Of a DNA stretch of 64,000 nt, positions 39,096 through 42,477 are shown piece by piece. The stretch is from Escherichia phage vB-Eco-KMB39, in sequence record OR539219.1; one strand, 5' to 3'. The number at the start of each line of letters is the position of its first letter. Within the stretch, counting starts at the first letter, position 1. Below the pieces are notes generated by a model. The model was not told where the DNA came from and made no database searches. It worked only from the letters and a program-made list of their open reading frames with translations. Position numbers and translations under genes: made by a program.

Positions 39096-39096
<1 letters not shown>

Positions 39097-39821
39097 TATA
39101 GTACCTTTAGTGTATTTTTAATTTTAGAAAAAAGTTCTTCAAGAGAACCATCGTTTGTAATTACTAAATCGCCATCACGAATTGGCAATCCAGCTTCTGT
39201 AATATGTGTATCATTGGATTTTTGACCAGGACGAACTACATGAATTACTGTAGCACCCATCGCCCTAGCCGCATCCATTTCATGATCTTGACGGGTATCA
39301 GGAACGATATAATAATCATAACCTGAGTTAAATTTATCAAGATAATCTAAAGCAAATAATTTTACCCAATACATGCGGTCGAAGTTATTAACAATCAAAT
39401 CCGTACCTAGGGCTTGCATCAGACGACGGACTGACCATTGATCTTCAATATTATTTATAACGTCAATAATCTTGTTAAATGCTACGGAATTAACTGATTC
39501 TTGTCCTTCGTCATCAAAAACAAACACACCTTTAATTGGGCTTTTACCGTTAAGATAGCAAAATGCTTGTTCCATAATCGTGATTACTTCTAATTTAGTC
39601 AGATTTAAATTAGTCTCACGATCATAGTCAATTCCTTCAAACTCTTTACGAGTTAAGCAAGGATAGTCAGTGTTTGCTGCAAATACTCCCCATGCATAAG
39701 CCAATGCATCCTTAATAGGACCAGCAAGTTGGTATTTAACTGCAGAATAATTGCTCATGATAAAATCAGCAGTAGTATCTTTTCCACTACGCTTTACACC
39801 GCTTAAAAAGATTAGTTTCAT
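39096..39821 (-). CDS. 1: Deoxynucleoside monophosphate kinase gp1
   Basis: From ATG 39819-39821 (SD GAGGAG) gives 241 aa starting MKLIFLSGVKRSGKDTTADFI (P-loop) as T4 gp1. Confidence 0.93.
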
Positions 39822-39870
39822 GTGTTTCTCCTCAAATTTAATTAAGATTATAACACACAAAACTGAAGCA

Positions 39871-40401
39871 TTAAACTTCTGCTATAATTTTTCCATCTTT
39901 TTCTACTTGAAAATAGGTGTAAGGAATCGTAGCTGTACATACTAAAGCCGGGTCTGAATCTTCTGTGTAGCTAAATTCTACTTCAGACAGGTCAGAAACC
40001 CAAGGCTTATAAAAATTTATTGACATCACGATTTCAGTTTTACTATTATCTAAAATGTAAAGCGTAATGTATTCAGGACCTGTTTTTTGGGCAGTATTTT
40101 CGCCTGTAAGATAGTTACTAGTTCCTAGCATCCATTCATACATTCCTATCCATGACTTAAGCTCTTCATCAACTATAAATCTCACGATGAGTGGGTCGTA
40201 CTCAAATGTAACACCTGGACGTTGTGCTCGGCCTAGTCCAAACGGCCCAGTCACGGTATCAGTAACAGGTATCCTAATTCCCGGAATAGGAACTGACTGA
40301 GCATTTAAAGTAAAAGCAGATGTAGTATTACTATGCGGTATTGATACTACAAAGTTAGTTGTATTTGCTTGGTTAAAAATTTGTTGTAGTGCTTGCGACA
40401 T
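39871..40401 (-). CDS. 3: Tail completion / sheath stabiliser gp3
   Basis: From ATG 40399-40401 (SD GAGGAA) gives 176 aa starting MSQALQQIFNQANTTNFVV as T4 gp3. Confidence 0.93.
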   Translation of the reverse strand: MSQALQQIFNQANTTNFVVSIPHSNTTSAFTLNAQSVPIPGIRIPVTDTVTGPFGLGRAQRPGVTFEYDPLIVRFIVDEELKSWIGMYEWMLGTSNYLTGENTAQKTGPEYITLYILDNSKTEIVMSINFYKPWVSDLSEVEFSYTEDSDPALVCTATIPYTYFQVEKDGKIIAEV

Positions 40402-40507
40402 ATATTCCTCATAATGCTTCATAAATGTTGGTGGTATAATGGGTCTAAGTCCCTTCCATTCAATTCCAATTAGAACAAACAACAGAAAAGAATGGAAGAT
40501 AATAGAA

Positions 40508-41167
40508 TTAATTTATTAGACTTCTTAAACGAGCAGAAGTCATAAATGGAAATTTTTCTAAAGTTGGCTTTCGCCAATATCTTGGATGACAAGTTGATTT
40601 AAAATCAAGAACAATTTTCTTTGCTTCATCAATAGTGTTAACTCCAAAGTTATCTAACATTATTTTCTTTTCTTTTTCCCACCGTTTATTAGCTAAAGCA
40701 GATTGAAGCTTTTTGTTTTTAAATGTGTCATTTTTTCTAGAATGAGTTGTGCCTTGTGTCGGACTCCATCCTCTTCCTAAAATAAATCCCTCAGGAATTA
40801 TATCTCCATCATGTAATTTTATACATCTTTTACCATTATTATAATATTTTCGTCCAGTTTGTGTATTTGAAATATTATTTACATGTTTTCTTTTTAACCA
40901 ACCATAAACTTTATTATTTCTCCTAACATATTTAGTTGAAACCGTCATTTTTATGGCTGCATAAGATAATTTTAAAGAATTTGGGTGTATTTTTACTAAT
41001 AGCTGATGTGCAACATAATGCTCTTCTGGAGTTAAATCAACCAAGTTAGAAGCATCATTACTACCGCCTAAACATTTCGGAATAATATGATGTCTTTCTT
41101 TATATCCAGTAAGGGCTCTATTGCGAGCCCTATCAATTAGTGAATTATAAATTTTTTCATAATTCAT
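40508..41167 (-). mobile_element. Free-standing HNH homing endonuclease inserted between genes 2 and 3
   Basis: HNH motif ...YKERHHIIPKCLGGSNDASNLVDLTPEEHYVAHQ...; ATG 41165-41167 overlaps gene 2 stop (ATGA); 219 aa. Confidence 0.8.
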
Positions 41168-41991
41168 CGTACATTGCTCCAAACTTTGTTTGCAGAGAAA
41201 CGTTTTCCTTTGGAGTAGAAGCTTTGGAGTGGCATCAACACAACGTTCGCCCAGTCTTTCGGGGCGATTTCAACAAGGCTACCCATAATATTACCGGGTA
41301 TATATGCCTTAATCATTTGGTCTGCACCCCTAAATCCTTTCACTTGACTCCAATCAATTTTTAATTTCGTTTTATTAGTAATAGTAGGTGTATTTGAATA
41401 TTGCTTTAAAAGCTCTTCTAGAAATTGCTGACGAGCTTTAGGTGGAATATAGTGCAAGTTTAATCCGTACATTAAATTGTGCTTACCTAAACCAAGGTAA
41501 ATTATCAAAGGAAATTTATCCCAGTAAGGAAGAGTTTCCTTGTGTTTAGCATCATAAGCAAAAGCATATATTCGTCCCGGTTGCGGGCGAACAACTTTAT
41601 GTCCTTTTACTTGCTTAATAGTTTCAGCAAACCACTTTCTGGTTTTATTATTAATTGCTGCACCTTCATTACGAATTTTATCACGCAATGTTTGTCTGAA
41701 TGAATTTATCATAAGCAGTTGTCTTTCTTGCTTATTGAGTTTATTCATTGGTTTTGATTCAAGCTTTTGAATCTTTTCAGCCGTTTTAATTCCTGAAGCA
41801 TATTTTGACATTGCTGAAGTAAACGTAGAGTATTTGATTCCTCTTTCTTCAGCAAATTGCTTTCCTGTCATTCCTTTTGCTTTGGCCTTTTTATATTCAA
41901 GACCTATCTGAATCCATTTCTTTTCGTTTAATGATTGCTTAACCTTTGGAACTTGGGGAGTGCTTTCATTAATTATTTGAAAAATAGCCAT
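41164..41991 (-). CDS. 2: DNA end protector protein gp2
   Basis: 275 aa at the T4 gene 2 position between genes 4 and 3. Confidence 0.88.
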
Positions 41992-42443
41992 TATGCCCCC
42001 TTAAAGCCAAGAGCTCGTAATCCATCTTCTGTTAGAATTCTAAATTTTATTCCACGCTTTTCAGCTAAAGATTGTGCTGCTTTCCATTTGTCAGTGTTCA
42101 CAGACCAGGTATAAATTTCATTCATAAATCTTTTCTTCGCTGCGGTTGTTAGATGTGCTGGTTTAACTGGTGGTTGTGTTTCTTTTTTAGGTTTTATTTC
42201 AATAAAAAATTCTTGTCCAGAAGAATCTTTCATCCAAATATCCATGAAGTATCTACGTTTTTTCCCTTCGGCATTACAAAAATAAGGAATTACTGCTGTT
42301 TCACTACCCCATGCAATAATTTCTGGATTTTTATCTAACCATTCAAAAAAGAATTTTTCCCAATTTGATCTATACGTAATTTTTTTAGGGTCACCTCTAT
42401 ATTTTGATATATTTTTAGGAACCCATTTTCCAGAATATGCCAT
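41991..42443 (-). CDS. 4: Head completion protein gp4
   Basis: 150 aa, [36 protein letters not shown] matches T4 gp4. Confidence 0.93.
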
Positions 42444-42469: not shown

Positions 42470-42477
42470 TATTTATA
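42470..42477 (-). promoter_or_regulatory. Late promoter box TATAAATA (minus strand) for gene 4
   Basis: Plus-strand TATTTATA, about 27 nt upstream of gene 4 ATG; divergent from the gene 53 promoter. Confidence 0.5.

What the first reader, a model, noticed from the sequence alone, without database searches (positions are those of the whole stretch)
40508..41167. HNH homing endonuclease inserted between baseplate/head genes 3 and 2
A 219-aa ORF with a clear HNH motif sits between gp2 and gp3, its ATG overlapping the gene 2 stop. As far as I recall, T4 has genes 3 and 2 adjacent with no endonuclease here, so this looks like a mobile insertion specific to this phage lineage, capable of gene conversion in mixed infections.
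Basis: partly seen in the sequence, partly recalled or inferred. Interest (0 to 1): 0.55.

Follow-up and report, generated by a model that had tools for sequence, protein, structure and literature searches.

The report
Mob-type HNH homing endonuclease gene
A real, intact selfish "homing endonuclease" gene sits directly behind gene 2 of this T4-like phage, but the same gene is already annotated in phage RB32 and about 35 other sequenced relatives, so it is an ordinary example of a well-known kind.

Summary
A 219-aa ORF lies at 40508-41167 on the minus strand. Its ATG overlaps the gene 2 stop (ATGA, 41164-41167). It sits between gene 2 (DNA end protector) and gene 3 (tail completion). T4 has only a 106-bp spacer there.

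The protein is a Mob-type free-standing HNH endonuclease. PHROG 655 "homing endonuclease" scores E=1.4e-58. H26/H27, N41 and H50 are invariant in 31 homologues. The AlphaFold model has a beta-beta-alpha core and matches T4 MobB (E=4e-11). The first 75 residues are 53% identical to T4 MobD.

It is not new. It is 99.5% identical to RB32 ORF146c, annotated "similar to mobB; not conserved from T4 position". 36 of 517 Tequatrovirus records carry it. Orthologues at 44-65% identity lie directly downstream of gene 2 in at least three other annotated genera and in metagenomic contigs.

Signs of mobility:
- The insert is ORF-exact.
- The last 93 nt of gene 2 are heavily recoded (12 differences from T4, against 0-1 per 40 nt elsewhere).
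- Among six carriers the gene diverges 0.47%, against 1.7-3.3% for its neighbours.
- Decayed copies exist (CT01, FL23).

Cleavage, target site and homing were not tested. My RBS-hairpin idea failed a shuffle test. Interest is low.

The parts
40508..41167 (-). Free-standing Mob-type HNH homing endonuclease gene (219 aa plus a TAA stop at 40508-40510)
   Evidence: ORF. PHROG 655 E=1.4e-58. 99.5% identical to RB32 ORF146c. Absent from T4.
41006..41104 (-). HNH (beta-beta-alpha-metal) catalytic core, residues 22-54. H26/H27 are at 41087-41092, N41 at 41045-41047, H50 at 41018-41020, H54 at 41006-41008.
   Evidence: These residues are invariant in 31 homologues. The AF2 model has strands 24-27 and 42-45 followed by helix 47-60, with pLDDT about 94-97. 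The family profile aligns to the HNH motifs of 6GHC, 6ME0 and 8YDB.
40508..40916 (-). Lineage-specific C-terminal part (residues about 84-219): helix, beta-hairpin (106-119), low-confidence linker (about 131-160), then a four-helix domain. It is the presumed DNA-binding/specificity module.
   Evidence: AF2 secondary structure. It is conserved only among the orthologues found downstream of gene 2. It shows no similarity to the T4 MobD C-terminus. The DNA-binding role is inferred by analogy with other Mob and I-HmuI-type enzymes (PMC2988022).
41164..41167 (-). ATGA overlap: the endonuclease ATG (41167-41165) overlaps the gene 2 TGA (41166-41164)
   Evidence: Sequence. Orthologues show the same kind of junction (TAATG, TGATG, TTGA, ATGA). 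This suggests translational coupling, which is an inference.
41177..41180 (-). GGAG, a likely Shine-Dalgarno sequence 9 nt upstream of the endonuclease ATG. It is created inside gene 2 by a synonymous Ser codon swap (T4 TCA becomes AGC).
   Evidence: Alignments. The same GGAG-N9-start arrangement is seen in P479 and L090. Its function is inferred.
41168..41260 (-). Recoded 3' tail of gene 2, linked to the endonuclease. It has 12 differences from T4 in two clusters: A around 41218-41235 and B around 41168-41185. It is the candidate self-immunity/target region.
   Evidence: Divergence profile: 5+5+2 differences here, against 0-1 per 40 nt across the rest of genes 2 and 4. Alignments. 52 records carry this allele and 451 carry the T4 type.
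40402..40507 (-). 106-bp gene 2-gene 3 spacer, retained intact downstream of the insert. The TAA that ends gene 2 in T4 now ends the endonuclease ORF.
   Evidence: Alignment with T4, CT01 and RB32. The spacer is the same 106 bp in T4 and RB32.
41164..41991 (-). Gene 2 (DNA end protector), 275 aa here against 274 in T4. The C-terminus is changed from ...KVWSNI* to ...KVWSNVR*.
39871..40401 (-). Gene 3 (tail completion/sheath stabiliser), 176 aa. The TTG-started 203-aa ORF in the listing is an over-extension.
42470..42477 (-). TATAAATA late-promoter consensus upstream of gene 4. It is the only such motif upstream of the endonuclease in this gene block, so it is the presumed source of its transcript.
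   Evidence: There is no TATAAATA between here and the ORF, and no terminator-like site between gene 4 and gene 3. The transcription unit is inferred.

Best explanation
The ORF is an intact member of the T4 'mob' group. These are free-standing homing endonuclease genes whose product has an N-terminal HNH (beta-beta-alpha-metal) nuclease domain and a lineage-specific C-terminal domain that presumably binds DNA.

Shown here:
- It is an ORF-exact insertion between the end of gene 2 and the unchanged gene 2/3 spacer.
- It is absent from T4 and from about 90% of close relatives.
- It carries the invariant catalytic residues.
- It is tightly linked to a recoded 93-nt tail of gene 2.
- It is 4-7 times less diverged among carriers than the genes around it.
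- It occurs as decayed copies in a few genomes.

Inferred mechanism:
- The gene is transcribed late with genes 4 and 2.
- It is translated by coupling to gene 2 (ATGA overlap, with a GGAG built into the recoded gene 2 tail).
- In a mixed infection the enzyme nicks or cuts the endonuclease-free allele at or near the 3' end of gene 2.
- Recombinational repair from the carrier genome copies in the endonuclease gene plus the adjacent recoded tail.
- The carrier's own allele is protected by the recoding and/or by the insertion itself.
For: Family assignment:
- PHROG 655 'homing endonuclease', E=1.4e-58.
- Invariant H26, H27, N41, H50 and H54.
- Beta-beta-alpha topology at high confidence.
- The family profile matches solved HNH motifs.
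- 22 of 31 family members hit Pfam HNH PF01844.
- Foldseek matches to T4 MobB (E=4e-11, 212 columns), T4 MobC and many phage 'homing endonucleases'.
- 53% identity to T4 MobD over residues 1-75 only.

Insertion:
- T4 has a 106-bp spacer and the insert boundaries are exact.
- 36 of 517 Tequatrovirus records carry it.
- The carriers belong to several ICTV species: RB32, hy03, fps2 and e112.

Site fidelity:
- Orthologues at 44-65% identity sit directly after gene 2 in Moonvirus, Gaprivervirus, Muldoonvirus and metagenomic contigs.
- One contig has the order 2-HEG-4, so gene 3 is not the constant neighbour.

Recent spread:
- Mean pairwise divergence among six carriers is 0.47% for the endonuclease gene, against 1.7-3.3% for genes 1, 3, 2, 4 and 53.

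Linked recoded flank:
- 12 differences in 93 nt, against 0-1 per 40 nt elsewhere in genes 2 and 4 when compared with T4.

Life-cycle relics:
- CT01 has a 57-aa internal-deletion remnant.
- FL23 has a frameshift.
- 15 endonuclease-free records have a chimeric tail.

Literature:
- MobA and MobE nick their targets and are over-inherited in crosses (PMC2988022).
Against: - There is no biochemical or genetic test of this protein, here or in the searchable literature.
- The Pfam HNH_5 score (17.8 bits) is below the curated cut-off of 27.5.
- The target site is not located. Cluster A of the recoded tail also occurs in 15 endonuclease-free genomes, and both 'QSF' and 'QQF' tails occur in carriers of other genera. 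Cluster A therefore cannot be the sole immunity determinant.
- Lower divergence could partly reflect something other than horizontal spread.
- The proposed late transcription and translational coupling rest on sequence motifs only.
Confidence: 0.8

Rival explanations
1. The gene is a vertically inherited relic. It was once a homing endonuclease gene but is now inactive or immobile, and is simply carried along in one sub-lineage of T4-like phages.
For: No activity data exist. Some copies are visibly decaying: the CT01 remnant, the FL23 frameshift and the Manna stop loss. The Pfam score is below threshold. Only about 7% of genomes carry it.
Against: The ORF here is intact and all catalytic residues are invariant across orthologues down to 44% identity. 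Carriers span several species, yet their endonuclease genes differ by only 0.47% while flanking genes differ by 1.7-3.3%. That pattern is hard to get by vertical descent alone.
Confidence: 0.1
2. It is an active homing endonuclease, but its recognition or cut site is not in the gene 2 tail. The site lies in gene 3 or the spacer, at a distance from the insertion point, as for SegG or SegF.
For: Free-standing T4 endonucleases often cut hundreds of bases from their own gene (PMC2988022). Relative to T4, the window is also diverged across gene 3 (1-4 differences per 40 nt) but nearly identical again in gene 1. That could be a long co-conversion tract on that side.
Against: Gene 3 alleles are not shared among carriers: they differ by 3.3% on average, and window against RB32 by 3.8%. 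The gene 2 tail is shared. Orthologues stay attached to the end of gene 2 even where gene 3 is not the neighbour (L111).
Confidence: 0.15
3. It is a domesticated nuclease kept because it benefits the phage. It might exclude endonuclease-free competitor phages by damaging their gene 2, or act in DNA-end or packaging biology together with gp2 and gp4. In this view it is not a purely selfish element.
For: One endonuclease lineage has stayed associated with gene 2 across several genera. It appears to be expressed together with gene 2 (ATGA overlap).
Against: About 90% of close relatives, T4 included, do without it. Decayed copies are tolerated. Nothing links it functionally to gp2 beyond adjacency, which is the normal signature of a homing site.
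Confidence: 0.05

Closest known systems
RB32 ORF146c (YP_803088.1) and its copies in RB33, HY03, vB_EcoM_112, fPS-2 and others
   Same: It is the same gene at the same place. It is 99.5% identical in protein and 97.9-98.9% identical in DNA over the 1.7-kb locus. The ATGA overlap and the 106-bp spacer are also the same.
   Different: There are only a few point differences, for example V96 here against A96 in most copies. None of these copies has been characterised experimentally, as far as I could find.
T4 MobB, MobC, MobD and MobE (free-standing HNH 'mob' endonucleases)
   Same: The N-terminal HNH domain and its motif (HHIIP...GG...NLV.LT.EEH...H) are shared. Identity to MobD is 53% over 75 residues. 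The predicted fold matches MobB (E=4e-11) and MobC (E=9e-7). It is likewise a free-standing ORF wedged between conserved genes.
   Different: It occupies a different genomic site (gene 2/3, against alpha-gt, nrdG/nrdD, nrdC.11 and nrdA/nrdB). It has a different C-terminal domain, with no sequence similarity to MobD beyond residue 75. Only MobA and MobE have shown nicking and homing (PMC2988022).
Orthologues downstream of gene 2 in Citrobacter phage NM4.3 (Moonvirus), Escherichia phage P479 (Gaprivervirus), Serratia phage SP1 (Muldoonvirus) and metagenomic T4-like contigs
   Same: The similarity is full-length, including the C-terminal domain (44-65% identity). The position, immediately after gene 2, is the same. 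The start codon overlaps or abuts the gene 2 stop.
   Different: The sequences are much more diverged. Some use TTG starts. The gene 2 tail sequence differs in each. In one contig the downstream neighbour is gene 4, not gene 3.
I-HmuI (intron-encoded HNH nicking endonuclease of Bacillus phage SPO1)
   Same: It has the same general design: an HNH nuclease plus an extended modular DNA-binding part. Some relatives of this protein carry Pfam NUMOD3 (PF07460) and PF22083, which I recall (not checked here) as the I-HmuI NUMOD-like domain.
   Different: No direct sequence or structure match to I-HmuI was obtained here. I-HmuI is intron-encoded, whereas this gene is free-standing.

Membership tests
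HNH / His-Me finger (beta-beta-alpha-metal) nucleases | Catalytic histidine (general base) at the end of the first beta-strand | tested here: met
   H26-H27 in EsHHIIP are invariant in 31 homologues. They align with the HH of McrA, the group II maturase and Cas8f-HNH.
HNH / His-Me finger (beta-beta-alpha-metal) nucleases | Conserved Asn between the strands, and a metal-ligand His/Asn on the following helix | tested here: met
   N41 (NLV), H50 (EEH) and H54 are invariant. N41 and H50 align with the N and the final H of the McrA motif.
HNH / His-Me finger (beta-beta-alpha-metal) nucleases | Beta-beta-alpha fold of the core | tested here: met
HNH / His-Me finger (beta-beta-alpha-metal) nucleases | Score above the curated Pfam threshold for an HNH model | tested here: not met
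   HNH_5 scores 17.8 bits against a cut-off of 27.5. 22 of 31 relatives hit PF01844 at E<=0.01, with the best at 1.7e-4. The motif is short and this subfamily is poorly covered by Pfam. PHROG 655 matches at E=1.4e-58.
T4 'mob' free-standing HNH homing endonucleases | Mob-type N-terminal HNH domain joined to a distinct C-terminal region | tested here: met
   53% identity to T4 MobD over residues 1-75 and none beyond. Fold match to MobB and MobC. The C-terminal region is conserved only among the orthologues next to gene 2.
T4 'mob' free-standing HNH homing endonucleases | Free-standing ORF between conserved genes, present in some close relatives and precisely absent in others | tested here: met
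   36 of 517 records carry it. T4 and about 465 others have the empty site with exact boundaries.
T4 'mob' free-standing HNH homing endonucleases | Site-specific nicking or cleavage of the endonuclease-free allele | not testable with these tools
   This needs an in vitro assay on T4-type gene 2/3 DNA. The only indirect support is the recoded, tightly linked gene 2 tail.
T4 'mob' free-standing HNH homing endonucleases | Over-inheritance (homing) with co-conversion of flanking markers in mixed infections | not testable with these tools
   Indirect support only. The distribution across species is patchy. Endonuclease-gene divergence is 0.47% against 1.7-3.3% in the flanks. A local foreign patch sits in an otherwise T4-identical gene 2.
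Homing endonuclease gene life cycle (invasion, decay, loss) | Intact, degenerate and empty alleles coexist at one site in a population | tested here: met
   Intact copies: 36 records minus the decayed ones. Degenerate copies: CT01 (57-aa remnant), FL23/FL44 (split ORF) and Manna (stop lost). Empty sites of the T4 type: about 450. Empty sites with a chimeric tail: 15.

The most novel reading that the evidence does not exclude
The mobile unit may be more than the ORF. It may be the ORF plus a recoded tail of the essential gene 2. That tail would supply the endonuclease's ribosome-binding site (GGAG made by a synonymous Ser codon swap). It would also protect the carrier from self-cleavage. Together these would have let one endonuclease lineage stay faithful to the 3' end of gene 2 across at least four genera of T4-like phages. 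If so, this would be a clean new model for how nicking HNH enzymes home and how they rewrite the end of a host gene without breaking it.
Probability: 0.35. Interest if true: 0.35.

Novelty: already known. Interest (0 to 1): 0.18.

Why it matters
It matters little on its own. Free-standing HNH (mob) endonuclease genes are a textbook feature of T-even phages, and this exact gene has been in GenBank since the RB32 genome. Two things give it modest value. First, no mob enzyme at the gene 2/3 site has been characterised. The natural series of alleles found here could therefore serve as an experimental system for the open question of how a single-strand nick by an HNH enzyme triggers gene conversion. 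That series comprises intact, remnant, frameshifted, chimeric-empty and T4-type empty alleles. Second, for genome annotation, many of the 36 carrier records still call the gene 'hypothetical protein'.

Tried and rejected
1. RBS-sequestering hairpin. RNAfold paired the two substitution clusters of the gene 2 tail (CUCCAAAGCUU with AAGUUUGGAG) and so buried the GGAG. By eye, three orthologous loci seemed to have analogous stems. A duplex-energy test against dinucleotide shuffles showed nothing special: in the window 41% of shuffles did as well, and none of 13 loci was significant. The whole-region z-score was -1.36. I dropped the idea.

3. IMG/VR scan with the full-length alignment. It was swamped by the common N-terminal domain and returned no true orthologue among 80 loci. 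A scan with the C-terminal domain alone found two. Look-ups by exact protein found the rest.

4. Cluster A of the tail as the immunity determinant. I rejected this as a sole explanation, because 15 endonuclease-free genomes carry it and carriers in other genera have either variant.

5. Gene 3 as part of the co-converted unit. This is not supported, because carriers do not share gene 3 alleles.

6. NCBIfam gave only a sub-threshold IscB HNH hit.

7. No second Mob-like copy exists in the 64-kb window.

Full report
**Observation.** The minus strand of the window carries an open frame from 41182 to 40508. All 30 aligned homologues begin MNY or MDY, one with a 5-residue N-terminal extension. The start is therefore the ATG at 41167, which gives 219 aa and a TAA stop at 40508-40510. 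The + strand reads tcat at 41164-41167.

The neighbours, all on the minus strand, are:
- gene 1, dNMP kinase (Pfam DNMK, E=4e-106);
- gene 3 at 39871-40401 (gp19-like tail tube family);
- a 106-bp spacer;
- the ORF;
- gene 2 at 41164-41991;
- gene 4 at 41991-42443.

Genes 53 and 5 follow on the + strand. The window is a mosaic Tequatrovirus, at best 96.8% identical to any deposited genome over 25-kb stretches.

**What the protein is.**
- PHROGs places it in family 655, "homing endonuclease", at E=1.4e-58.
- Pfam gives only a sub-threshold HNH_5 hit, 17.8 bits against a cut-off of 27.5.
- NCBIfam gives only a sub-threshold IscB HNH hit.
- A database search found 2881 relatives at E<=1e-10.
- In an alignment of 31 relatives, Y22, E24, H26, H27, P30, C32, G35, N41, L45, E49, H50 and H54 are invariant. 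This is the HH...N...H pattern of HNH nucleases.
- A profile of that alignment hits the HNH motifs of McrA (6GHC, E=0.0017), a group II intron maturase (6ME0) and Cas8f-HNH. The alignments place H27, N41 and H50 on the catalytic positions.
- 22 of the 31 members hit Pfam HNH PF01844.

The AlphaFold2 model has mean pLDDT 88.8 and shows strand 24-27, strand 42-45 and helix 47-60, which is the beta-beta-alpha-metal topology. After the core come a helix, a beta-hairpin (106-119), a low-confidence linker and a four-helix C-terminal domain. Whole-model searches of solved structures were weak or uninformative. Against predicted viral structures the model matches T4 MobB (E=4e-11 over 212 columns), T4 MobC and dozens of phage "homing endonucleases". 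BLASTP against T4 MobD gives 53% identity over residues 1-75 and nothing beyond.

The protein is therefore a Mob-type enzyme. It has the shared N-terminal HNH domain and its own C-terminal domain, which is presumably the DNA-binding and specificity module. That last point is inferred by analogy (PMC2988022).

**Is it an insertion?** Yes.
- In T4, genes 3 and 2 are separated by 106 bp with no ORF.
- T4 reads ...AAAGTCTGGTCAAATATC|TAATTCTATT.
- The window reads ...AAAGTTTGGAGCAATGTACG-ATGAAT...(ORF)...ATAAAT|TAATTCTATT.
- The insert is ORF-exact. The TAA that ends gene 2 in T4 now ends the endonuclease ORF, and the 106-bp spacer before gene 3 is untouched.
- Gene 2 gains one codon: ...KVWSNI* becomes ...KVWSNVR*.

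**Is it new?** No.
- Megablast of the 1.7-kb locus finds 517 related phage records. Of these, 36 contain the whole insert at 97.8-98.9% identity, including RB32, RB33, HY03, vB_EcoM_112 and Yersinia phage fPS-2.
- RB32 annotates it as ORF146c, "similar to mobB; not conserved from T4 position".
- Petrov et al. count two mob-like genes in RB32 (PMC2993671).
- RB32 is among the phages whose homing endonucleases were included in a 2012 phylogeny (PMC3468402).
- I found no paper that tests its activity.

**Wider distribution.** tblastn finds full-length orthologues at 52-65% identity in Citrobacter phage NM4.3 (Moonvirus), Escherichia phage P479 (Gaprivervirus) and Serratia phage SP1 (Muldoonvirus). 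All lie immediately after gene 2. Two IMG/VR genomes and seven metagenomic contigs show the same arrangement. An eighth contig, L113, starts too close to the gene to show what lies upstream. In contig L111 the order is 2-HEG-4, so the constant partner is the end of gene 2, not gene 3. In every case the start codon overlaps or abuts the gene 2 stop, as ATGA, TAATG, TGATG or TTGA. By contrast, the N-terminal domain alone is shared with more than a thousand Mob-like genes at many other sites.

**Signs of mobility.**

1. *A recoded flank.* Relative to T4, the window has 0-1 differences per 40 nt through genes 4 and 2. It then has 12 differences in the last 93 nt of gene 2, immediately next to the insert.
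   - The differences fall in two clusters. Cluster A is CTTCAGCAGTTCGTTTCA in T4 and CTCCAAAGCTTCTACTCC here. Cluster B is GTCTGGTCAAATATC in T4 and GTTTGGAGCAATGTACGA here.
   - Cluster B includes a synonymous three-base Ser swap (TCA to AGC). This creates GGAG 9 nt before the endonuclease ATG.
   - Across the collection, 52 records carry this tail and 451 carry the T4 type.

2. *Low divergence.* Among six carriers from several species, mean pairwise divergence is 0.47% in the endonuclease gene. It is 1.3% in the tail, 1.7% in the rest of gene 2, 1.9% in gene 4, 3.3% in gene 3, 2.0% in genes 57A+1 and 2.4% in gene 53. A non-essential gene that is 4-7 times less diverged than its essential neighbours is what recent horizontal spread predicts.

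3. *Decayed and empty alleles.*
   - CT01 keeps only a 57-aa remnant that lacks the HNH core.
   - FL23 has a 1-nt deletion in an A-run that truncates the protein after residue 60. FL44 shows the same split annotation.
   - CE1 has an in-frame 3-nt deletion.
   - Manna has lost the stop codon, so the ORF runs in frame into gene 3.
   - Fifteen endonuclease-free records have a chimeric tail, with cluster A of the carrier type and cluster B of the T4 type. This is as expected from recombination or loss within the 30-bp identical stretch between the clusters.

**Likely mechanism.** This part is inferred.
- The only late-promoter consensus upstream is TATAAATA at 42470-42477, before gene 4. There is none between it and the ORF, and no terminator-like site in between.
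- With the ATGA overlap and the embedded GGAG, the simplest model is late co-transcription with genes 4 and 2 and translation coupled to gene 2.
[quoted passage not shown] By analogy, the enzyme would nick the T4-type allele near the 3' end of gene 2.
- Repair from the carrier would then copy in the ORF and the adjacent tail.
- The target site itself is not established. Cluster A cannot be the sole immunity determinant. A distant site in gene 3 is a live alternative. However, carriers do not share gene 3 alleles, and the lineage follows gene 2 rather than gene 3.

**An idea that failed.** RNAfold paired cluster A with cluster B and buried the GGAG. This recalled the mobE RBS hairpin. A duplex-energy test against dinucleotide shuffles showed no excess stability in the window (41% of shuffles did as well) or in any of 12 orthologous loci. 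No consistent stem appeared in the folds. I do not claim this structure.

**Verdict.** The element is a known, already annotated Mob-type HNH homing endonuclease gene, present in about 7% of sequenced T4-type genomes and as orthologues in other genera. It is ordinary for this group of phages. What remains unknown is experimental: its cut site, whether it nicks or makes a double-strand break, and whether it still homes.

Noticed in passing
L116 (Salmonella phage Manna, PP987310.1 72558-74457), equivalent to window 40508-40520: The endonuclease stop codon is lost through a 1-nt deletion plus substitutions. The ORF reads in frame through the 106-bp spacer into gene 3, and the record annotates a single 1296-nt CDS. 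This is either a real HEG-gp3 fusion or read-through, or an assembly error.
   Followed up: partly
window 40402-40482 (-): The gene 2/3 spacer is open in the gene 3 reading frame. The ORF finder therefore extends gene 3 to a TTG at 40482 (203 aa, against the accepted 176 aa). This open frame is what allows the Manna read-through.
   Followed up: partly
L005 533-1180 (Escherichia phage P479) and L007 2001-2660 (Aeromonas phage 65): A second, different homing endonuclease gene sits between genes 4 and 2 in these phages. In P479 both ends of gene 2 are occupied. Gene 2 looks like a recurrent landing place for homing endonucleases.
   Followed up: no
window 41991-42443 (-): gp4 (head completion protein) matches the Pfam Tn7 TnsA-like endonuclease N-terminal domain at E=2e-21. 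The same family is recorded for gp4 in all related contigs.
   Followed up: no
whole window 1-64000: No second Mob-like HNH copy is detectable by tblastn with this protein. The first 25 kb nevertheless matches the DNA polymerase, alpha-glucosyltransferase and nrdD region, where T4 carries mobB and mobC. I did not check those sites individually.
   Followed up: partly
L115 (Escherichia phage FL23) at window-equivalent 40988; also FL44: A single A is missing from an A-run, which splits the endonuclease gene into 64-aa and 146-aa ORFs. This could be genuine pseudogenisation or a homopolymer sequencing error.
   Followed up: partly
window 39096-39860 (-): The ORF finder starts gene 1 at a TTG (254 aa). 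By comparison with the 726-nt gene 1 of T4 and RB32, the real start is the ATG at 39821 (241 aa, MKLIFLSG...).
   Followed up: partly
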